A DNA stretch of 24,434 bases. Source: an uncultured Bacilli bacterium (lineage in GTDB: Bacteria > Bacillota_I > Bacilli_A > RF39 > UBA660). Shown one piece after another: positions 2,203 to 12,216 of the stretch (position 1 is the first letter of the stretch; each line of letters begins with the position of its first letter). The stretch lies in NCBI GenBank assembly GCA_947630885.1, contig CANRJI010000001.1, positions 1 through 24,434 on the forward strand, given 5' to 3'. Below the pieces are notes generated by a model. It ran no database searches, had not been told where the DNA came from, and was given only the letters and a program-made list of their open reading frames with translations. The position numbers and the translations under genes are program-made.

Positions 2203-3489
2203 ATGGAAAAAAACAACTTGATGCCCGCTGACAGCTACGTCGTTATCAATAAGACGATTTTGCATGATGAAGACCGAAAGATTTTATCAACTTTATATTT
2301 ACCGGTTATTGGAATAGAAGCGACTACTTTATATTTGACTTTATGGGCTGACTTAGATAATGCACAGATAGTAAGTAGAGACTTTTCTCATCAGAAACTG
2401 GTGTCAGCACTTCGAATGACAATTGGTGAAATTGAAAATGCGAGACATAAACTTGAGGCCATTGGTTTAATTAAGTGCTATGTTAAAAAGGGAAATATTA
2501 ATAACTATGTATATGAGCTATATTCGCCAGTTAGTGCAAGTGAGTTTTTATCGCATCCTGTTCTCAATATTGTCTTATATAGTAATATAGGAAAGACAGA
2601 ATATGATAATTTGATTAAATCTTTTAAATTACCAAGATTTAATATGACTAATTATACAGATATTACAAAGAGTTTTGATGATGTCTTTGAATCGGCAAAT
2701 CTTACTTCTTATGATTTGTCACTCGAAGATATTCGTAAATATAATAAACTCAAACTCAATATTAATAGTAACTTCGACTTTAACTTTCTTATAGGAGCAA
2801 TGCCTAGGAATATTGATACGGGAAGAGTATTTACAAAAGATATAAAGGAACTTATTATCAATTTGGCTTTTATATATGATATCGATGCTGTTAAAATGGC
2901 TAATATTGTTAAAGGATCTTTTAATGAAAGGGGAACTATTAATAAAGAGGAATTAAGAAAGAGTGCTAGAAATTATTATCAATTTGATAATGGAGGAATT
3001 CTTCCAACGATTATCGATAATAGTCAACCTGAATATTTGCGAAAACCAATTGGTGATACATCGAAGAAGGCAAGAATGATTTATACTTTTGAGACGATTT
3101 CGCCAAAGGAATTACTAGTTAGTAAGAATAAAGGTAGTGAACCGACGAGAAGAGATTTAAAATTAGTTGAAGATCTTCTTATCGACTATCAATTGAAACC
3201 TGGTGTCGTCAATGTTTTAATCGACTACATTTTGAATATTAATGAAAAGAAACTTACCAGAAATCTTGTCGAAACACTCGCAGGAGAATGGCAAAGACTC
3301 GGTATTGAAACGGTCGAGGAAGCAATGAATATTGCTGAAAAGGAATTTAAAAAGCGAAATAGAAAAAATGTTCGAACGGAAACAAAAATTAGTAACACTC
3401 CCGATTGGTTTGATAAAGATATTACCAAAGATAAGATTAATGATGGCGAAGAAAATCAGTTAGAAGAATTACTAAAGGAGTATAAGTAA
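2203..3489 (+). CDS. dnaB: Replication initiation and membrane attachment protein DnaB (Firmicutes type)
   Basis: N-terminal LSTLYLPVIGIEATTLY and LEAIGLI; C-terminal DnaB_2-like PGVVNVLIDY...LAGEWQRLGIETVEEAM. Its stop overlaps the dnaI start (TAATG). Confidence 0.92.
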   Translation: MEKNNLMPADSYVVINKTILHDEDRKILSTLYLPVIGIEATTLYLTLWADLDNAQIVSRDFSHQKLVSALRMTIGEIENARHKLEAIGLIKCYVKKGNINNYVYELYSPVSASEFLSHPVLNIVLYSNIGKTEYDNLIKSFKLPRFNMTNYTDITKSFDDVFESANLTSYDLSLEDIRKYNKLKLNINSNFDFNFLIGAMPRNIDTGRVFTKDIKELIINLAFIYDIDAVKMANIVKGSFNERGTINKEELRKSARNYYQFDNGGILPTIIDNSQPEYLRKPIGDTSKKARMIYTFETISPKELLVSKNKGSEPTRRDLKLVEDLLIDYQLKPGVVNVLIDYILNINEKKLTRNLVETLAGEWQRLGIETVEEAMNIAEKEFKKRNRKNVRTETKISNTPDWFDKDITKDKINDGEENQLEELLKEYK

Positions 3490-4400
3490 TGAATGATGTA
3501 AAAGATATAGTTAAAAATAAGTATAAAGTAAGTGCTAGAGAATTAGAAGATAGATTTGATGAGGCTCTAGAAGATGCTACTTTTCGAAAGGTTATTAAGG
3601 GAATTAATCTTCCAAAGGAAGAACTTATTAAATATACTTCTTTATTTCAAGATGCCGCACGAGAAGTAAAAAATTGTTCAGGTTGTAAAAATATTATGGA
3701 ATGTAAAAATGCAGTAATAGGGCACGTTTACTATCCAAGTATGGAACAAGATAATCTAGTTTTTTCTTATAATGCCTGCAAATACAAAAAGAAAGTAGAT
3801 AAGGATACTGCTTATCAAAATAATGTCTTTCTTCTCGATATGCCTAAAGAAATAATTAATGCTTCAATGAAAGACATCTATACTGATGATAAAAAAAGAT
3901 TGGAAACAATTAAATGGCTTACGACTTTTATTAAAAAAAGTGAATTGGGAGAAGAAAGTAAGGGATTATATCTTACAGGAAACTTTGGATGTGGTAAAAC
4001 TTATTTAGTGGCAGCAATGATGAATGAACTAGCTAAAAAAGGAAAGAAGATTGCTATTATTTATTATCCTGAATTTTTAAGAACTTTAAAAGAACAATTT
4101 GCAGATGACTTTAGTGATTTATTTAATAGAGTTAAAAGAGCTGATTTGCTCCTTCTAGATGATATTGGAGCGGAGACGACAACGAATTGGAATAGAGATG
4201 AAATATTAGGAACTATTTTACAATATAGAATGCAAGAAAAACTTCCTACTTTCTTTACATCAAACTTATCGATGGAAGAACTTGAAAGACATTTAGTAGG
4301 AAATGATAGTGAAGGTAAAATTAAAGCAAGAAGAATTATTGAGAGAATTAAATATTTAACTGATAATATAACGATGATTGCGGAAAATAGAAGAAAGTGA
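3489..4400 (+). CDS. dnaI: Primosomal helicase loader DnaI
   Basis: Walker A GNFGCGKT, Walker B LLLLDDIGAE, RDEILGTILQYRM, FFTSN, N-terminal Cys cluster (CSGC...C...C); follows dnaB. Confidence 0.95.
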   Translation: MNDVKDIVKNKYKVSARELEDRFDEALEDATFRKVIKGINLPKEELIKYTSLFQDAAREVKNCSGCKNIMECKNAVIGHVYYPSMEQDNLVFSYNACKYKKKVDKDTAYQNNVFLLDMPKEIINASMKDIYTDDKKRLETIKWLTTFIKKSELGEESKGLYLTGNFGCGKTYLVAAMMNELAKKGKKIAIIYYPEFLRTLKEQFADDFSDLFNRVKRADLLLLDDIGAETTTNWNRDEILGTILQYRMQEKLPTFFTSNLSMEELERHLVGNDSEGKIKARRIIERIKYLTDNITMIAENRRK

Positions 4401-4689: not shown

Positions 4690-7611
4690 ATGCTTACGGC
4701 TTTAGAAGTTAAAACTTGTTATTCTATTTTGAGTAGTTTAAATAGAATAGATAAACTAACAGAAAAGGCTCGAGAAGTGGGCTATTTTTCTTTAGCTATT
4801 ACTGATACTAACAATATGTTTGGAACTTATGAGTTTTATTTGGCTTGTCAAAAAAATAATATTAAACCTATTATTGGTATGGAAATTTTAAATAATAATG
4901 ATAGATTTGTATTACTAGCCAAGAGTAATGATGGGTATAAAAATTTAATAAAACTAGCAACTTTAGTATCAGAAAGAGCTTTAACAGATGATGATTTAAA
5001 AGAATATAAAAAAGATTTAATTTTGATTATGCCTTTTAGTCATTATAATCGTAATATTGTAAGTATTTTTGATGAATATTATGTCGGCTATAGGAATGGG
5101 GAAGAAAGAGATAAGATTACCGAAAAAAAGGTTCTTATAACGGACGTATCTTATTTGGAAAAAGATGACTATAGATATTTAGATTATTTATTAATGATTA
5201 AAGATGATAAAAAGATAGGGGAAATGGAACTTAATACTCATAAAGGAAAACATCTTTTAAGTAAAGAAGAATTTGATAATTTAACAGATGATGATACGAT
5301 TAAAAATATGAAAGAAATTACAGATAAATGTAATGTGACAATGGAGTATCAAAAAGGACTTCTTCCCGTATATGATGAAAAAATTAATTCATTTGATTAT
5401 TTGAAAAACTTATGTCTTAAGGGAATTAACAGAAGACTCGGGGGAAATGTTCCTAATGAATATTTGGAAAGATTAGAGTACGAATTAGATGTAATTAATA
5501 AGATGGGCTTTTGTGATTATTTTTTAGTTGTTTGGGACTATGTTAAATATGCGAAATTTAATAATATTCTCGTGGGGCCAGGAAGAGGTAGTGCCGCGGG
5601 AAGCTTAGTTAGTTATGCAATTGGTATTACTGATGTCGATCCTATTAAGTACGATTTGTTATTTGAAAGATTTTTGAACCCGGAAAGAGTTACGATGCCC
5701 GATATTGATATTGATTTTGATAGTGAAAAGAGAAATCTTGTAACAGACTATGTAATGGATAAATATGGTAGTAAAAAAGCGGTCGGTATTATTACTTTTA
5801 ATACACTAGGAGCTAAACAAGTTATTAGAGATGTCGGAAGGTGTATGGATATATCGCTACCTATTATCGATGATATTGCTAAGGCAATTACTTCAAAAGA
5901 TTTAAAAGATTCGTATGTTAAAGATTCTAAATTTTACCGATTAATTAATGCAAAAGAGGAATATAAAAGACTTTATCTTACTTCTCTTAAACTAGAAGGA
6001 TTACCAAGACATATATCGATTCATGCAGCAGGTATTGTTATGAGTAAGTATGATATCGATACGATTATTCCTTTATATAAAAATCCTCTAGGAATATATA
6101 CTTCAGCTTTTTCAAAGGACTACTTAGAGCCTTTAGGACTACTTAAAATGGACTTTTTAGGTCTTGATAACTTAACTTTAATTAGTAATGTTATCGAAGA
6201 AATTAGAGAGAAGGAAAAAATTAATATTAGTTTTGAGAAAATACCTCTCGACGATAAAAAAACTTTAAAGGTATTTTATGATGTCGATACGGATGGAATA
6301 TTTCAGTTTGAATCGGCGGGAATGAAGAAATTTCTAGCTAAATTAAAGGTTAATAGTTTTGATGATATTGCTCTTGCGCTTGCCTTATATCGTCCGGGAC
6401 CAATGGATAATATCGACAGTTTTATTGCAAGAAGAAATGGGCGGGAAAAAATAGATTATATTCATCCTGATTTGGAAGATATTTTAAAACCAACTTATGG
6501 TATTATTATCTATCAAGAGCAAATTATGCAAATTGTAAGAACACTTGCTGGTTATTCTTATGGAGAAGCTGATGTACTAAGAAGAGCAATGTCAAAAAAG
6601 AAAGAGCAAATTATTCTTAATGAAAAGCCTAAATTTATCAAAGGATGCTTAAAGAATGGTTACAGTGAAGAAATGGCTAATCAGGTCTATAACTTAATTT
6701 TGAAATTTGCAGACTATGGTTTTAATAAATCTCATTCGGTTGCTTATGCTATTGTTGCTTATAAAATGGCCTTTATTAAGACATATTTTCTTAAGTATTT
6801 TATATCGGGATTACTTACAAATGCTATTGGTAATGAAGTTAAAACTAGTACATATATCAATAGGGCGAGAAGAAGTGGAATTAAAATACTATCTCCTGAT
6901 ATTAATGAGAGTACTAATAAATATTTTGTTATAGATAATGCAATTAGATGTCCTTTAGCAATTATTAGAAATGTTGGAACGGCGGTTTCAAACGATATTA
7001 TTAAGGAAAGAGAAAAGGGTAAATTTACTGATTTTAGTGACTTTATCGTCAGAATGTATAGTACTGGTATCAATAGGAAAGTTATTGTTAGTTTAATTAA
7101 TGCGGGAAGTATTTCTTTTGGCTACAATAAAAAGACACTGATAGAAAACCTTGACAATGTTATTAATTATGCCGAAATTGCTAAAGATGCTGGACTAATT
7201 GAAATTGAAAAACCAGAAATAGAAAGATATGAAGAATATACAAAGAGTGAACTTGCCTTACTAGAACTTAAAAATATTGGCTTTTATTTGACTGATCATC
7301 CGGTAAGTAAATATAGAGAAAATAGTAATATTAATACTTCTAATGTCATCAACTACTTTGATAGAAATGTTAAAATGATTGTGATGATTAGTAATATTAA
7401 GGAAACGACAACCAAAAATAATGATGTTATGGCTTTTGTAACAGGAAATGATGAATTTGGAGAAATTCCTTTGATATTTTTTCCAACGACATATCAAAGA
7501 TTTAATAATATTAAAGTAGGAATGGTTGTGGAAATTAATGGAAGAGTAGAAAGAAGATTTGATAAATATCAAATTGTCGTAGGAAATCTTAAAGTATTGG
7601 AGGAATCTTAA
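4690..7611 (+). CDS. dnaE: DNA polymerase III alpha subunit (DnaE)
   Basis: PHP-like N-terminus (LAITDTNNMFG), GPGRGSAAGS, FERFLNPER, catalytic PDIDIDF, KMDFLGL, YGFNKSH, C-terminal OB fold; SD AAGGAGG. Confidence 0.98.
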   Translation: MLTALEVKTCYSILSSLNRIDKLTEKAREVGYFSLAITDTNNMFGTYEFYLACQKNNIKPIIGMEILNNNDRFVLLAKSNDGYKNLIKLATLVSERALTDDDLKEYKKDLILIMPFSHYNRNIVSIFDEYYVGYRNGEERDKITEKKVLITDVSYLEKDDYRYLDYLLMIKDDKKIGEMELNTHKGKHLLSKEEFDNLTDDDTIKNMKEITDKCNVTMEYQKGLLPVYDEKINSFDYLKNLCLKGINRRLGGNVPNEYLERLEYELDVINKMGFCDYFLVVWDYVKYAKFNNILVGPGRGSAAGSLVSYAIGITDVDPIKYDLLFERFLNPERVTMPDIDIDFDSEKRNLVTDYVMDKYGSKKAVGIITFNTLGAKQVIRDVGRCMDISLPIIDDIAKAITSKDLKDSYVKDSKFYRLINAKEEYKRLYLTSLKLEGLPRHISIHAAGIVMSKYDIDTIIPLYKNPLGIYTSAFSKDYLEPLGLLKMDFLGLDNLTLISNVIEEIREKEKINISFEKIPLDDKKTLKVFYDVDTDGIFQFESAGMKKFLAKLKVNSFDDIALALALYRPGPMDNIDSFIARRNGREKIDYIHPDLEDILKPTYGIIIYQEQIMQIVRTLAGYSYGEADVLRRAMSKKKEQIILNEKPKFIKGCLKNGYSEEMANQVYNLILKFADYGFNKSHSVAYAIVAYKMAFIKTYFLKYFISGLLTNAIGNEVKTSTYINRARRSGIKILSPDINESTNKYFVIDNAIRCPLAIIRNVGTAVSNDIIKEREKGKFTDFSDFIVRMYSTGINRKVIVSLINAGSISFGYNKKTLIENLDNVINYAEIAKDAGLIEIEKPEIERYEEYTKSELALLELKNIGFYLTDHPVSKYRENSNINTSNVINYFDRNVKMIVMISNIKETTTKNNDVMAFVTGNDEFGEIPLIFFPTTYQRFNNIKVGMVVEINGRVERRFDKYQIVVGNLKVLEES

Positions 7612-8181
7612 ATGAAGAAAGGAATATTTATTGCGATATCAGGTCCTAGTGGTGTCGGAAAGAATACGATTGCCGATATTCTTACCGAAAGAGGGTATGG
7701 TATCTATTCGGTATCTGCGACGACAAGAAAGATGCGTGATGGAGAAAAAGATGGAAAAGATTACTTTTTTATCTCAACTGAGGAATTTGAAAAGAAAATT
7801 GCTAATCAGGAATTTATTGAGTATACGAAATATAATAATAACTATTATGGTACTTTAAAAAGTTTTGTTCAAGATAGGCTTGATAATGGGGAAAATGTAA
7901 TTGCCGTTATTGAAATACAAGGTGGTATGAATATTAAAAGGATTTTCCCAGAAGCGGTGTTAATCTTTATTATGCCTCCTTCTTTTGAAGAACTAGAACA
8001 AAGACTAAGAAAAAGAAATACGGATAGTGAGGAAGATATTTTAAAGCGAATGGAAATTGCTCGAATGGAAATTGATTATAGAACTAAATACGACTATACT
8101 GTCGTTAATAATGTACTTGAAGACACAGTAGAAGAAATAGTAGATATTATCAAAAAAGAAATCGAAAAGAGAGATATTTAA
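7612..8181 (+). CDS. gmk: Guanylate kinase
   Basis: P-loop GPSGVGKNT, SATTRKMRDGEKDGKDYFF, NYYGT, FIMPPSFEELEQRLRKR. Confidence 0.97.
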   Translation: MKKGIFIAISGPSGVGKNTIADILTERGYGIYSVSATTRKMRDGEKDGKDYFFISTEEFEKKIANQEFIEYTKYNNNYYGTLKSFVQDRLDNGENVIAVIEIQGGMNIKRIFPEAVLIFIMPPSFEELEQRLRKRNTDSEEDILKRMEIARMEIDYRTKYDYTVVNNVLEDTVEEIVDIIKKEIEKRDI

Positions 8182-8317: not shown

Positions 8318-8349
8318 TGTATTAATTAATTATGGAAGTGGAGGAAGTT

Positions 8350-9099
8350 ATGAAAAGTAGTAGAATTATGAAAATATTTGAACAGTATGTAAGAAAATAT
8401 GATATGAATAATATTAATATTAAATCGAAATATTTTCATTCACTAAAAGTTATGGAAATTGTTAGAGATTTAGCGAATGGACTAGGTATTTTTTCGGAAG
8501 AAGAACTTGCCGTCTGTGAACTTATTGGTCTATTCCATGAAATTGGTAACTTTTCTAAAACTCCAAATTACCATATTGATGATGATAGTAGTGATTGTTA
8601 TGAAAGGACAATCGATGTACTATTTAATAAAAATTTAATTAGAGAAATTAGTAAGGAAACAAAATATGATAATATTATTAAGATGGCTATTTACTCTTAT
8701 GATAAGATGGGATTCCCTGAAGATATTGATGAAAAGACAAAGCATATTTGTGCTATTATAAAAGATGCTCATAACTTGGACTCGTTTAGATTATTTATTA
8801 ATTATCCTTATGTCGATACAAGAATTTCTTGTTATCCTAGTACACTCGTATACAATGACTTTAAGAATTTTAAGACAATAAGTCCAAAAATGAGTGAGAA
8901 TGCTTCAGATAGTGTCCTTGTCGTACTATCTAATATGTATGCCTTTAATTATAGATATTCTTATTACTTGTTAAAGGAAAATAAGTATATCGAAAAGATT
9001 TTTGATTCACTTACGTTTGACAGTGATGAGTTTAAAAACTTTTATAAACAGTTGATGACTGTTCTTAACGATTATGTAGATAAAAGGATTGGTGGTTAA
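8350..9099 (+). CDS. HD-domain-like protein with degenerate metal-binding motifs
   Basis: YFHSLKV...LIGLFHEIG...IKDAHNLD follows the H...HD...D layout of HD phosphohydrolases but has HE in place of HD. The likely start is ATG 8350 with SD GGAGG at 8340; the track start is 8332. Confidence 0.75.
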   Translation: MKSSRIMKIFEQYVRKYDMNNINIKSKYFHSLKVMEIVRDLANGLGIFSEEELAVCELIGLFHEIGNFSKTPNYHIDDDSSDCYERTIDVLFNKNLIREISKETKYDNIIKMAIYSYDKMGFPEDIDEKTKHICAIIKDAHNLDSFRLFINYPYVDTRISCYPSTLVYNDFKNFKTISPKMSENASDSVLVVLSNMYAFNYRYSYYLLKENKYIEKIFDSLTFDSDEFKNFYKQLMTVLNDYVDKRIGG

Positions 9100-9100
9100 A

Positions 9101-11530
9101 ATGCTCGATAAAAAATATGATCCAAAAGAGAAGGAAAAGAAATGGTTAGATTATTGGGAAAATAATAGTATTTATAAATTTGTACCAGATGAAAGAAAAA
9201 TATATTCAATTGATACTCCTCCTCCAACAGTAAATGGGAAAATTCATATAGGTCATATTTTTTCTTATTCACAAACAGAAATGATAGCAAGATATAAAAG
9301 ACTACGAGGATATAATATATTTTATCCATTTGGCTTTGATGATAATGGATTACCTAGTGAGAGATTGGTTGAAAAAGAACAGGGAAAGAAAGCTCACGAA
9401 ATAGGTAGAGAAAATTTTTCAAAACTATGTTATGAAACAACTGATAAATATGAGAAAGAATTTCAAACTTTATTTAGTAAAATGGGGGTAAGTACAGATT
9501 GGGATATACATTATAAAACGGTTAGTCCTTCGACGATTAAAATTAGTCAATTATCATTTCTAGATTTAATTGAAAAAGGGCATTGCTATCATAAAGAAAG
9601 TCCTGCTTTATGGTGTAATGAATGCTTAACATCTATTGCACAAGCAGAACTTGAAACGAAAACAATAAAAACAACATTTAATTATGTTAATTTTAAAACA
9701 GTTGAAGATGATGAAGAATTTACTATTGCTACAACAAGGCCAGAGTTATTACCCGCGATAGTTTGCGTATTTGTAAATCCAAATGATGAAGTTCATAAGC
9801 ATTTAATTGGAAAAACGGCTCATATTCCAGTAATTAATGTTGATGTCCCTATTATGGCAGATGAAAAAGTTGCTATTGATAAAGGTACTGGTGTTGTTAT
9901 GTGTTGTACCTTTGGAGATCAAACAGATATTGAATGGTGGAAAAAATATAATTTACCTTTAAAATATATTTTTACTGATGATGGAAGAATCGCTTCTGAA
10001 GTTCCAAATTATGGCGGAATGAAAATTAAAGAAGCTAGAAAACAAATAATTGAAGATTTACAAAATGGTGGATATGTAGTTAAAATTGAAGAATTGGAAC
10101 ATGAGGTTCAAACACATGAAAGATGTGGTAAAGAAGTAGAATACACGGTTATGAAACAATGGTTTATAGATATTATGAATCATAAAGAAGATTTCTTAAA
10201 AATTGGTAACAATATTAAATGGCATCCAGAACACATGCATACTAGATATGAGGAATGGGTAAATAATATTGCTTGGGATTGGTGCATATCAAGGCAAAGA
10301 TATTTTGGTGTTCCTTTTCCTGTTTGGTATTGTAAAGAATGTGGAAAACCAATTTTTGCTAAAAAAGAAGATTTACCTGTAAATCCCCTAGTTGATAATC
10401 CTAGTGTAAGTGAGTGCCCTAAATGTAAATGTAAGGAATTTTTACCTGAAACAGATGTTATGGATACATGGGCAACTTCTTCAGTAACTCCTTTAATCAA
10501 TATGAGATATGGCGAAGAAAATAATTATGAAAATTTATTAAAACCGATGAGTCTTAGGACTAATGCTTCAGAGATTATTAGAACATGGGATTTTTATACT
10601 ATTGTAAAAAGTTTTTATCATTTTGGTATTCGTCCATGGGATAATGTAATGATTTCAGGATTTGTTATGGCAGACAAAGGGGAAAAAATTAGTAAATCAA
10701 AAGGAAATAGCAAAGTAGAGCCTACTCAATTGATAGAAGAATATTCCGCTGACGTAATTAGATATTGGGCAGGATCAGGAAGACTTGGAACAGATATTGT
10801 ATTTAGTGAAGAAACGCTTTTGAGAGGAAAAAAATTACTAAATAAAATATGGAATGTATCTAAATTTATTGAAATGCATTTAGCAGATTATGAAGATAAA
10901 GACTTTAACAATTATGAATATGTAGATAAATGGATTTTAGGAGCATTCCAAGAAATGGAAAAAGGATTCATTAAATATTTAGACGAATATGAAGTTGGAT
11001 TAGCATTAAATCACTTGGAAAAATTCTTTTGGAATTTCTGCGATAACTATATAGAAATAGTAAAACATAGATTATATAGGCCAGAAGAATTTGGTGAAAT
11101 ACCAAGATATTCAGGTCAAAAAACTATTTACACGATTCTTTATAAATTATTACAAGACTTTAGTATTTTCTTCCCATTTATTACAGAAGAAATATATCAA
11201 GAATTATATCATAACAATAAATCAATACATTTAACAGAAATTAAACCTCTTGAGTTTGACTTTGATAAAGAAAGAAAAAATGGTAATGATATGATTGATA
11301 TTATTAGTCAAGCTAGAGGAGAGAAATCAAATAAAAATGTTTCCCTAAAAACATCAATTAAGAATTTAACTTTAAATTTGAATAAGGAATTAAAAGAAGC
11401 AATAGAATTATCAATGAAAGATTTTAAAGCAACATTATTTATTGAGAATTTAGAAATTAATGATGTACATAATGGATACTCTATCAATAAATTAGAATTG
11501 AATTTAGAAACAACAGAAAATAAGGAATAA
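9101..11530 (+). CDS. valS: Valyl-tRNA synthetase, short archaeal-like (type 2) form
   Basis: DTPPPTVNGKIHIGH (HIGH), FGFDDNGLPSERLVEK, editing domain ATTRPELL...GTGVVMCCTFGD, WDWCISRQRYFG, DVMDTWATSS, KISKSKGN (KMSKS site). No C-terminal coiled-coil arm. Start ATG 9101 lies 1 nt after the upstream TAA. Confidence 0.96.
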   Translation: MLDKKYDPKEKEKKWLDYWENNSIYKFVPDERKIYSIDTPPPTVNGKIHIGHIFSYSQTEMIARYKRLRGYNIFYPFGFDDNGLPSERLVEKEQGKKAHEIGRENFSKLCYETTDKYEKEFQTLFSKMGVSTDWDIHYKTVSPSTIKISQLSFLDLIEKGHCYHKESPALWCNECLTSIAQAELETKTIKTTFNYVNFKTVEDDEEFTIATTRPELLPAIVCVFVNPNDEVHKHLIGKTAHIPVINVDVPIMADEKVAIDKGTGVVMCCTFGDQTDIEWWKKYNLPLKYIFTDDGRIASEVPNYGGMKIKEARKQIIEDLQNGGYVVKIEELEHEVQTHERCGKEVEYTVMKQWFIDIMNHKEDFLKIGNNIKWHPEHMHTRYEEWVNNIAWDWCISRQRYFGVPFPVWYCKECGKPIFAKKEDLPVNPLVDNPSVSECPKCKCKEFLPETDVMDTWATSSVTPLINMRYGEENNYENLLKPMSLRTNASEIIRTWDFYTIVKSFYHFGIRPWDNVMISGFVMADKGEKISKSKGNSKVEPTQLIEEYSADVIRYWAGSGRLGTDIVFSEETLLRGKKLLNKIWNVSKFIEMHLADYEDKDFNNYEYVDKWILGAFQEMEKGFIKYLDEYEVGLALNHLEKFFWNFCDNYIEIVKHRLYRPEEFGEIPRYSGQKTIYTILYKLLQDFSIFFPFITEEIYQELYHNNKSIHLTEIKPLEFDFDKERKNGNDMIDIISQARGEKSNKNVSLKTSIKNLTLNLNKELKEAIELSMKDFKATLFIENLEINDVHNGYSINKLELNLETTENKE

Positions 11531-11564
11531 AATATATATTGCATTTAGTTTATAGTGATATGTA

Positions 11565-11667
11565 TATTTTGTGTTGGTAAAGTTCAAGAAAATAGTATGT
11601 AAAAGAAAGAGAAAACTTAGAAAAAGAAAAATTATTATTAAAAGATATAGTAGAAAAGCTAAAGTAA
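11565..11667 (+). pseudogene. Candidate decayed 3' remnant of a canonical (type 1) valS coiled-coil arm
   Basis: With a few small indels it reads YFVGKVQE-IV(C)KERENLEKEKLLLKDIVEKLK*, resembling the Val_tRNA-synt_C pattern F-V-x-K-A-P-x-x-V-V-x-x-E-(R/K)-x-x-L. It ends in TAA followed by a T-rich tract. Alignment was by eye. Confidence 0.5.
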
Positions 11668-11823
11668 TTTCGTTTTTCTTTTTTTATAATGTCATTACTG
11701 TGAATAAGGTAGATATAATTTAATTTTTAATTGTTACTTCTTGAATTTTGGAAAAATTATCTTTTTTCTTTATATATAGCTTTCAATTTTGATGATTGCT
11801 TTTTTTCAATTTTAAAAATTTAA

Positions 11824-11852
11824 TTTACAAAATATGTATTTAGTGGTACAAT
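11824..11852 (+). promoter_or_regulatory. Sigma-A promoter (extended -10) of the TM2-DUF2752 genes
   Basis: TTTACA (11824-11829), 17-nt spacer, TGg-TACAAT (11847-11852). Confidence 0.6.
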
Positions 11853-11877
11853 TTGTTTAAAGAAGGGAGAATTTGAT

Positions 11878-12216
11878 ATGGCTAAATTTTGTCAAAACTG
11901 TGGAGCAGAGCTTAATGAAAATCAAGATATTTGCTTAAAATGCGGAATTAAAATTAAAAAGGAGAGCGAAGTTAATAATGATCCTAATGCCAAATCGAAA
12001 GTAGCTGCTGGATTATTAGGTATCTTTTTAGGTGCTTTCGGTGTACATAATTTTTATTTAGGATACACAGGAAAAGCTGTAGCACAACTTTTACTTTCAG
12101 TTTTATCTTGTGGTTTTTTGGCTGTTGTGTCTGAAATTTGGGGATTAATTGAAGGCATTATGATTTTAGCAGGAAGTATTGATAAAGATGCTAATGGTAA
12201 TCTATTAAAAAATTAA
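11878..12216 (+). CDS. Zinc-ribbon plus TM2-domain membrane protein
   Basis: FCQNCG...CLKCG zinc ribbon; TM2 motif KSKVAAGLLGIFLGAFGVHNFYLGYTGKAVAQL; SD AAGGGAG. Confidence 0.92.
   Translation: MAKFCQNCGAELNENQDICLKCGIKIKKESEVNNDPNAKSKVAAGLLGIFLGAFGVHNFYLGYTGKAVAQLLLSVLSCGFLAVVSEIWGLIEGIMILAGSIDKDANGNLLKN

What the first reader, a model, noticed from the sequence alone, without database searches (positions are those of the whole stretch)
11565..11667. Fossil of the original valS directly behind the replacement gene: candidate in-situ xenologous displacement
The AT-rich gap after valS contains an AUG-less coding-like stretch: tat ttt gt(gt)t ggt aaa gtt caa gaa a ata gta tgt aaa (a) gaa aga gaa aac tta gaa aaa gaa aaa tta tta tta aaa gat ata gta gaa aag cta aag TAA. 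It reads YFVGKVQE-IVCKERENLEKEKLLLKDIVEKLK*. This resembles the end of the type 1 ValRS coiled-coil arm (F-V-x-K-A-P-E-x-I/V-V-x-K-E-R-E-x-L); KVQE is two single-base changes from KAPE (gct>gtt, cca>caa). That arm is exactly what the intact type 2 gene lacks. Inference: an incoming archaeal-type valS replaced the native gene at its own locus and left the old 3' end to decay. Three small indels must be assumed, and the alignment was by eye.
Basis: partly seen in the sequence, partly recalled or inferred. Interest (0 to 1): 0.7.

Follow-up and report, generated by a model that had tools for sequence, protein, structure and literature searches.

The report
Relic of displaced valS gene
Behind an intact archaeal-type valyl-tRNA synthetase gene lies a 72-base dead remnant of the bacterial-type gene that relatives still carry at that spot, so an essential gene was swapped in place by horizontal transfer.

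Summary
Window 11596-11667 (22 sense codons plus TAA, one frame, no start codon) is the 3' end of the genus-native type-1 valS. A profile of 16 congener type-1 C-termini ranks this fragment first of 41,221 six-frame fragments of the genome (21.5 bits, E=3e-4; next best 11.2 bits). Its stop codon aligns base for base with that of congener G009.

The resident valS (9101-11530) is a complete PRK13208 archaeal-type enzyme. Nineteen congeners carry type-1 valS directly after the HD gene; in the 18 whose contig reaches past valS, TM2 follows.

The case is one of many. Five of 30 species in the genus carry type 2. Four have it at this locus, with different junctions and non-sister positions. Other gut Bacilli MAGs show intact type-2/type-1 tandems and type-1 remnants of graded length.

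Likely route (inferred): type 2 inserted at the valS start, using the shared ribosome-binding-site and start sequence. Type 1 was then deleted, leaving variable 3' stubs.

This is a well-documented new example of in-situ xenologous (homeoallele) displacement, not a new kind of system.

The parts
8332..9099 (+). HD-domain gene, the conserved upstream neighbour of valS in the genus
   Evidence: Pfam HD hit. It is 66-84% identical to the gene directly upstream of valS in all congeners examined.
9101..11530 (+). Intact type-2 (archaeal-type, PRK13208) valS, the replacement gene. Its first codons (ATGCTCGATAAAAAATATGA) match the native type-1 start.
   Evidence: NF009687 scores 1001 bits against a cut-off of 738, over profile 4-793/801. 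The HIGH (GKIHIGH) and KISKS motifs are present in the translation. Codon 2 is CTN as in native type 1, whereas type 2 elsewhere uses TTA. No T-box leader was found.
11531..11595 (+). Gap of uncertain origin.
   Evidence: The protein-profile score is below the null mean. The DNA profile is best at offset -1 but negative. There is no similarity to sequence downstream of type-2 valS in the nearest donor-like loci.
11596..11667 (+). Relic F1: the last 22 codons plus TAA of the native type-1 valS (the end of the C-terminal coiled-coil arm). It has no in-frame start codon and is single-copy.
   Evidence: It is 76.9% nt identical to the G009 type-1 3' end, ending on the stop codon. It occurs once in the genome.
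11668..11817 (.). Spacer of unknown origin between the relic and the TM2 promoter. Relatives whose type-1 gene has the short ending have only 12-23 nt here.
   Evidence: No hit in any fetched locus.
11818..11852 (+). Promoter-like site for the TM2 gene (TTTACA, 17 nt, TACAAT, preceded by TG). It resembles the arrangement in congeners where the -35 box lies inside the last codons of type-1 valS (..AAATTTACAAAATAA). This may be a second very short remnant and is tentative.
   Evidence: Promoter scan. Alignment of the regions upstream of TM2. blastn flank homology extends 13-23 nt into the type-1 valS end of G019, G017 and G002.
11878..12216 (+). Zinc-ribbon/TM2-domain gene, the conserved downstream neighbour of valS
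   Evidence: Pfam TM2 and zinc-ribbon hits. Synteny in congeners.

Best explanation
Window 11596-11667 is a non-functional relic of the type-1 (bacterial) valS gene that this lineage once carried between the HD gene and the TM2 gene. A horizontally acquired type-2 (archaeal-type, PRK13208) valS now occupies that slot and supplies ValRS activity. The old gene was destroyed except for its last 22 codons and stop.

Most likely route (inferred, not shown for this genome): the type-2 gene integrated at the very start of the resident valS. It used the roughly 20-50 nt of ribosome-binding-site and start-codon sequence (ATG-CTT/TTA-GAT-AAA-AAA-TAT) that both gene types share. This gave a tandem type-2 > type-1 pair in which type 2 took over the native expression signals. 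The redundant type-1 copy was then removed by an illegitimate deletion whose 3' end fell short of the stop codon.

The same replacement has happened several times in this genus and in related gut Bacilli.
For: Shown:
- The resident valS is complete type 2. No type-1 valS or PF10458 domain exists elsewhere in the 76%-complete genome.
- The relic is specific. It ranks first genome-wide at E=3e-4, first of 20,800 windows, scores +43 bits at the collinear offset only, and its stop codon aligns with G009's.
- Type-1 valS follows the HD gene in 19 congeners. TM2 follows it in the 18 whose contig reaches that far.
- Type 2 occurs in 5 of 30 genus genomes. RpoB and DnaE trees put the type-2 species apart: G004 with type-1 G010 and G042 (support 100), G020 with G008, and G000 next to type-1 G003, G013 and G024.
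- G004 against its sister G010: nucleotide homology stops 10 nt into valS and resumes 34 nt before the type-1 stop. This independent replacement left stubs at both ends.
- G020 keeps about 40 nt of the type-1 3' end; G008 keeps none.
- Intermediates exist in other MAGs: intact tandem type-2 > type-1 (L162, L193, L200), a 246-aa C-terminal remnant (L148), a 32-aa remnant (L160) and about 13 codons (L126).
- The tandems carry a direct repeat of the RBS and start region in front of both genes: 33 nt exact in L200, about 50 nt with 2 mismatches in L162.
- Type-2 genes at the HD locus start ATGCTN like native type 1. Type-2 genes elsewhere start ATGTTA.
- The window's type-2 protein is 91% identical to those of rabbit-gut MAGs with other gene contexts, but only 82-84% to congeners. 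Monophyly of the genus type-2 genes has AU p=0.035.
Against: - The relic is short (72 nt), A-rich and K/E-rich. A DNA-only genome-wide search is borderline (E=0.07), and the general Pfam model does not detect it.
- No tandem intermediate, and no second copy of the start region, survives in this genome. The insertion-then-deletion route is therefore extrapolated from other lineages.
- The 65 nt before the relic and the 150 nt after it are unexplained.
- All genomes are MAGs. This one is 76% complete, so a second valS on a missing contig cannot be strictly excluded.
- The AU test group was named after the tree had been seen.
Confidence: 0.85

Rival explanations
1. The relic is genuine type-1 valS sequence, but the displacement happened in another species of the genus or family. 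The block 'type-2 valS + relic' then entered this lineage in one step, by homologous recombination in the conserved HD and TM2 flanks. This is homeoallele exchange without a two-copy stage.
For: - The type-2 genes of the genus are not monophyletic.
- A related genus (L125) has the same HD > type-2 > TM2 order with a type-2 protein 89% identical.
- The window may hold a second, very short type-1-end remnant at the TM2 promoter, as expected if an imported block landed inside a resident type-1 gene.
- Flank-mediated replacement is a described route for aaRS homeoalleles (PMC3191353).
Against: - The relic is most like type-1 ends of the window's own clade: G009 at 76.9% nt with the short ending.
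- The closest type-2 relatives (L121-L126, 91%) lack this relic and this synteny.
- In G004 the flanks are sister-like right up to the gene, so no flank was co-transferred there.
Confidence: 0.1
2. The match is a chance resemblance. An A-rich intergenic stretch happens to translate into a K/E/L-rich coiled-coil-like peptide.
For: - The region is 22% G+C.
- The nhmmer DNA profile gives only E=0.07 genome-wide, with a large composition-bias term.
Against: - It ranks first of 41,221 fragments with a 10-bit gap to the next.
- Only the collinear offset scores positively, +43 against -30 bits.
- Strand, syntenic position and stop codon are all correct.
- Comparable relics occur at the same place in G004, G020, L126, L148 and L160.
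Confidence: 0.02
3. The stretch is a functional element kept by selection, such as a small peptide gene, a 3'-UTR structure or a terminator for valS, rather than a decaying relic.
For: - Its divergence from G009 (76.9% nt identity) is no greater than that of the functional neighbours, which are 67.6-80.9% identical.
- It is followed by a T-rich run.
Against: - There is no ATG, GTG or TTG in frame after the preceding stop.
- The only listed ORF (11571-11723) is in another frame and has no family match.
- The predicted fold is no better than shuffles, z=-0.54. No terminator-like site was found.
- Other type-2 species keep different lengths of it, or none.
Confidence: 0.02
4. The arrangement is an artefact of metagenome assembly or binning: a chimeric contig joining a foreign valS to this organism's locus.
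For: The genome is a 100-contig MAG. G041 shows a type-1 valS split across two contigs, plus a type-2 gene on a third.
Against: - The same HD > type-2 > TM2 order is assembled independently in G004, G008, G020 and L125.
- Composition is uniform across the junctions.
- Logan contigs of a rabbit-gut run reproduce 11605-12000 exactly, although that run may be the source sample and none bridges 11530-11605.
Confidence: 0.01

Closest known systems
Xenologous gene displacement in situ (Omelchenko et al. 2003, Genome Biology, cited from my own knowledge) and aaRS 'homeoalleles' (Andam and Gogarten; PMC3191353, read)
   Same: - A divergent gene of identical function replaces the resident one in the same syntenic slot.
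- The two types are patchily distributed among close relatives.
- The gene tree conflicts with the species tree.
- PMC3191353 names two routes: addition, coexistence and loss, or recombination in conserved flanks.
   Different: - The displaced gene's remains are still visible here. PMC3191353 does not mention remnants or pseudogenes (0 occurrences of either term).
- The coexistence stage is a head-to-tail tandem at the same locus rather than 'another part of the chromosome'.
- A duplicated RBS and start segment points to integration at the gene's own 5' end.
Archaeal-type ValRS in bacteria, such as Rickettsia (Woese, Olsen, Ibba and Söll 2000, from my own knowledge); NCBIfam NF009687 / PRK13208
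   Same: A bacterium uses the shorter ValRS type that lacks the C-terminal coiled-coil arm. The model passes its cut-off only in archaea among the 14 control genomes.
   Different: The replacement is recent and repeated within one genus of gut Bacilli. Intermediates are preserved, unlike an ancient transfer fixed in a whole lineage.
Type-1 ValRS C-terminal coiled-coil domain (Pfam PF10458, Val_tRNA-synt_C)
   Same: The relic corresponds to the last helix of this domain as it occurs in congeners, where PF10458 scores E=1e-6 to 1e-11.
   Different: Only about a third of the domain remains, without the KAPE-type segment. The Pfam model itself does not score it.
Mupirocin-resistant second IleRS genes (MupA/MupB, NCBIfam 'exception' models)
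   Same: A divergent class-I synthetase of another phylogenetic type spreads horizontally among Firmicutes.
   Different: No inhibitor is known that would select for type-2 ValRS here. No plasmid or mobile-element genes were seen next to it. It replaces the native enzyme rather than supplementing it. This is an analogy only.

Membership tests
Type-2 / archaeal-type ValRS (NCBIfam NF009687, PRK13208) - the resident gene | Equivalog model score above the curated cut-off, over the full length | tested here: met
   1001 bits against a cut-off of 738, profile 4-793/801. The bacterial-type NF004349 scores 541 bits, below its cut-off of 704.
Type-2 / archaeal-type ValRS (NCBIfam NF009687, PRK13208) - the resident gene | Class-I catalytic motifs (HIGH and KMSKS) present, and no C-terminal coiled-coil domain | tested here: met
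   GKIHIGH and KISKS are in the translation. There is no PF10458 match in the ORF or the genome.
Type-1 ValRS 3' end (relic at 11596-11667) | Significant similarity to the type-1 C-termini of close relatives | tested here: met
   Genus HMM: 21.5 bits, E=3e-4, rank 1 of 41,221. blastn against congener type-1 3' ends: E down to 2e-8.
Type-1 ValRS 3' end (relic at 11596-11667) | Match to the general Pfam model PF10458 (Val_tRNA-synt_C) | tested here: not met
   No hit on the relic at E<=10, either in the six-frame genome search or for the 23-aa peptide. The fragment covers only about 22 of 66 model positions.
   The frameshift-aware profile score for 11531-11596 is below the null mean. The DNA profile is negative at every offset.
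In-situ xenologous displacement / homeoallele replacement | Relatives carry the other gene type in the same syntenic slot | tested here: met
   HD > type-1 valS > TM2 in 18 congeners, and HD > type-1 valS in one more whose contig ends there. HD > type-2 valS > TM2 in G000, G004, G008 and G020.
In-situ xenologous displacement / homeoallele replacement | Distribution of the two types conflicts with the species tree, and the incoming gene groups with genes of other taxa | tested here: met
   RpoB and DnaE trees need at least 2-3 changes of type. The window's type 2 sits in a starred clade with MAGs of other gene contexts. AU p=0.035 against genus monophyly.
In-situ xenologous displacement / homeoallele replacement | An identified donor lineage | tested here: inconclusive
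   The closest type-2 genes (91%) come from unnamed rabbit-gut 'uncultured Bacilli' MAGs. The direction of transfer and the actual donor are not resolved.

The most novel reading that the evidence does not exclude
The type-2 valS behaves as a recombinase-free mobile cassette. Its first codons and ribosome-binding site are near-identical to those of type-1 valS in these AT-rich Bacilli. It could therefore integrate, Campbell-like, at the start of any resident valS, giving a tandem flanked by a 30-50-nt direct repeat. It could pop out again as a circle by recombination between the repeats, and become fixed when the type-1 copy is deleted. This would explain why an essential gene has been replaced again and again at exactly the same base-pair position across gut Bacilli. 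The sweep might be driven by a selective agent such as a natural ValRS inhibitor, or by escape from T-box control.
Probability: 0.3. Interest if true: 0.75.

Novelty: new member of a known kind. Interest (0 to 1): 0.55.

Why it matters
Replacement of essential translation genes by horizontal transfer is usually inferred only from trees. Here the event is recorded in the DNA itself. A dated-by-decay stub of the old gene lies behind the new one. Sister species define the swapped segment to the base. Other genomes preserve every stage, from intact tandem to no trace.

This makes the route of an essential-gene swap directly testable: insertion at the gene's own start, a two-copy stage, then deletion. 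It also shows that valS type is not a stable taxonomic character within this gut lineage.

For annotation, the 50-aa ORF called across the relic is spurious.

Tried and rejected
- Truncated type-1 gene whose own tail is the 'fossil': rejected. The ORF matches the type-2 model end to end.
- General Pfam PF10458 on the relic: no hit in the six-frame genome search or for the peptide. The first attempt failed because one peptide was too short.
- nhmmer with a 150-nt DNA profile, genome-wide: only E=0.07, rank 2, swamped by A-rich bias. An unfiltered blastn with word size 7 gave many spurious AT-rich hits and was not used.
- Frameshift-aware extension into 11531-11595: no gain.
- Terminator or structured RNA in 11590-11700: the fold is not better than shuffles, and there is no terminator-like site.
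- T-box leader in the window: none at the gathering threshold.
- rpoB as a species marker for the window's genome: the gene is missing from this 76%-complete MAG. DnaE, which is linked and lies 1.5 kb away, was used instead.
- The search for homologous proteins: the top 120 hits were all unnamed close relatives at 83-91% identity, which says nothing about deeper origin.
- Public runs: only short Logan contigs from rabbit-gut and other gut metagenomes were available. They reproduce 11605-12000 exactly but do not bridge 11530-11605. The best holder may be the source sample, so this is no independent support.
- Similarity of the 65 nt after the valS stop to sequence downstream of the nearest type-2 genes: none seen.
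- Spacer 11668-11817: no match in any fetched locus.

Full report
**What is in the window**

The window is contig C1 of a 0.9-Mb, 100-contig, 76%-complete MAG with about 29% G+C. Public runs holding parts of it are rabbit-gut and other gut metagenomes.

The gene order around the finding is:
- dnaE, 4690-7611
- gmk, 7612-8181
- an HD-domain gene, 8332-9099
- valS, 9101-11530
- a 347-nt gap
- a zinc-ribbon/TM2 gene, 11878-12216
- DUF2752, YetF and a polysaccharide deacetylase

The valS product scores 1001 bits on NCBIfam NF009687 (PRK13208; cut-off 738) over profile positions 4-793 of 801. It scores only 541 bits on the bacterial-type NF004349, whose cut-off is 704. Among 14 control genomes NF009687 passes its cut-off only in the four archaea. 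The gene is therefore a complete archaeal-type ('type 2') ValRS, not a truncated type-1 gene. HIGH and KISKS motifs are present. The genome has no other valS and no PF10458 domain.

**The observation**

One frame of the gap reads ...W*SSRK*YVKERENLEKEKLLLKDIVEKLK* at 11596-11667. That is 22-23 sense codons with no start codon, closed by TAA.

I fetched the valS loci of 19 congeners and one genome of a sister family. The type-1 ValRS proteins of the genus end ...NYV(S/N)KAPxxIVxKERExLxKEKxLLxxxLxK(FTK)*. G009 ends DKERENLEKEKNLLNDILVKLN*.

Four tests support the core:
- An HMM of the last 50 residues of 16 congener type-1 enzymes, searched against all 41,221 six-frame stop-to-stop fragments of this genome, puts the 23-residue fragment first. 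It scores 21.5 bits (E=3e-4); the runner-up scores 11.2 bits (E=0.5).
- A frameshift-aware profile alignment that I wrote ranks the region first of 20,800 genome windows, at 54.5 against a mean of 19.2 and sd 3.9.
- A position-specific DNA profile gives +43 bits at the collinear offset and -30 at the next best.
- blastn of the entire gap against about 1 Mb of related loci gives 16 hits. Fourteen lie in congener loci. Where I had the valS coordinates the hit falls on the type-1 3' end, and for G009 it ends on the stop codon.

The stretch is single-copy.

- Allowing frameshifts adds nothing.
- The segment alone scores below the null mean.
- At DNA level the expected offset (-1) is the best of 51, but it is negative and barely ahead of an unrelated offset.

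The demonstrable relic is therefore 11596-11667. Anything upstream is at most suggestive.

**The interpretation**

Type-1 valS (842-847 aa) sits directly after the HD gene in 19 congeners (16; G001, G012 and G023). In all but G001, whose contig ends there, the TM2 gene follows. That is the slot type 2 occupies in the window.

**The wider pattern in the genus**

The genus holds 30 species genomes, and type 2 is found in five: G000, G004, G008, G020 and G041.

- On an RpoB tree the type-2 species are not one group. G004 groups with type-1 G010 and G042 (support 100), G020 with G008 (99), and G041 with type-1 G011 (100).
- The window's genome lacks rpoB. On DnaE it sits next to the type-1 species G003, G013 and G024. 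Members of that clade have the short type-1 ending that the relic resembles.
- The junctions differ between type-2 species.
  - G004 against its sister G010 shows 85-92% nucleotide identity in both flanks. Homology stops 10 nt into valS and resumes 34 nt before the type-1 stop. G004 therefore has a 69-nt foreign leader plus type 2, bracketed by stubs of type 1 at both ends.
  - G020 keeps about 40 nt of the type-1 3' end. G008 keeps none.
- G041 has type-1 valS at the HD locus, split by a contig break. It also has a more divergent type 2 (75%) behind a T-box leader on another contig. This is a possible two-copy state, with the usual MAG caveat.

**Beyond the genus**

The genome collection holds 537 stretches encoding relatives of the window's type-2 enzyme. 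The best 80 are 82-91% identical. They come from many gut MAG species, including Candidatus Onthousia faecipullorum, Candidatus Ventrenecus avicola and Firmicutes bacterium CAG:822.

- The window's protein is 91% identical to those of rabbit-gut MAGs that have different neighbours, but only 82-84% to its congeners.
- In the type-2 tree the genus sequences are scattered. Forcing G000, G004, G008 and G020 together costs 115 log-likelihood units (AU p=0.035). The group was named after the tree had been seen.
- Type-1 identities follow taxonomy: 75-82% within the genus and 65-71% to L162, L193 and L200.

These loci preserve a decay series:

| Locus | Type-1 state next to type 2 |
|---|---|
| L162, L193, L200 | intact gene (847-848 aa) 20-30 nt downstream |
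| L148 | 246-aa C-terminal remnant |
| L160 | 32-aa remnant |
| L126 | about 13 codons abutting the type-2 stop |

About a dozen loci, including L150 and L151, instead keep an 830-nt type-1 5' fragment upstream of type 2.

**Mechanism (inferred)**

- In the tandems, the ribosome-binding site and the first 20 nt or so of valS are directly repeated in front of both genes. The repeat is 33 nt exact in L200 and about 50 nt with two mismatches in L162.
- Both enzyme types start MLDKKY(D/N) with near-identical codons.
- Type-2 genes at the HD locus use CTN for codon 2 like the native type 1. Type-2 genes with their own leaders use TTA.

This fits integration of type 2 at the resident gene's start through this short homology. 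Type 2 would thereby inherit the native expression signals (there is no T-box here). Illegitimate deletion of the redundant type 1 would then follow, with end points that vary between lineages.

None of this is shown for the window's own lineage. One-step import of a 'type 2 + relic' block through flank recombination remains possible. That is the homeoallele route described in PMC3191353.

**What the relic is not**

- It has no in-frame start codon.
- The listed 50-aa ORF (11571-11723) is in another frame and matches no family.
- The RNA fold is not better than shuffles, and no terminator-like site was found.
- Its nucleotide identity to G009 (76.9%) lies within the range of the neighbouring functional genes, 67.6-80.9%. 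The deletion is therefore not ancient relative to the divergence of these species.

**Comparison with what is known, and verdict**

This is a case of xenologous gene displacement in situ, or aaRS homeoallele replacement. Both are established concepts (PMC3191353; Omelchenko et al. 2003 and Woese et al. 2000 from my own knowledge).

What is unusual is the preservation:
- a relic in the window;
- base-pair-resolved swaps between sister species;
- tandem intermediates with a start-region repeat.

I rate it a new, well-documented member of a known kind, of moderate interest. The cassette-like spread is the most novel reading still open.

Noticed in passing
window 11818-11852; congener loci L054, L056, L059, L061, L064, L066-L069: In about half of the type-1 congeners the -35 box of the TM2 gene's promoter (TTTACA) lies inside the last codons of valS (..K-F-T-K*), followed by TATGATAAAAT. 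The window has a similar TTTACA-17-TACAAT site 26 nt upstream of TM2. This may be a second, selected remnant of a type-1 end.
   Followed up: partly
L102 (G041:C23) 79-291; also L121, L148, L150, L160, L162, L193, L200: T-box leaders (Rfam RF00230, 94-135 bits) precede the valS region in these lineages, sometimes with an HD-like gene between leader and valS. None is present in the window, where valS follows the HD gene with a 1-nt gap.
   Followed up: partly
G041: C1:56028-58383, C44:5-985, C23:413-2815: One congener MAG seems to hold both valS types: type 1 at the native HD locus (broken across two contigs) and a divergent type 2 elsewhere. The type 2 lies next to an LD-carboxypeptidase gene, a GNAT gene and an ASCH-domain gene. 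This could be a true two-copy stage, strain heterogeneity or a binning error.
   Followed up: partly
L150, L151, L156, L159, L181, L183, L194-L196, L198 at about 3001-3830; also L144, L161, L190: In many other gut MAGs, including Ca. Onthousia faecipullorum and Ca. Ventrenecus avicola, an approximately 830-nt fragment resembling the 5' third of a type-1 valS lies directly upstream of the intact type-2 gene. This is the mirror image of the 3' relic in the window.
   Followed up: no
G014:C1:124595-125354 and 127722-127862: In a single-contig, 69%-complete congener assembly, the HD gene and the valS region are riddled with in-frame stops, and only a 54-aa frame covers the valS C-terminus. This looks like an error-rich long-read assembly rather than biology.
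   Followed up: no
window 11668-11817: A 150-nt AT-rich spacer between the relic and the TM2 promoter has no counterpart in any fetched locus. Relatives whose type-1 gene has the short ending have only 12-23 nt between valS and TM2.
   Followed up: partly
window 11571-11723: A 50-aa GTG-started ORF spans the relic in a different frame. It has no family match and is most likely spurious.
   Followed up: yes
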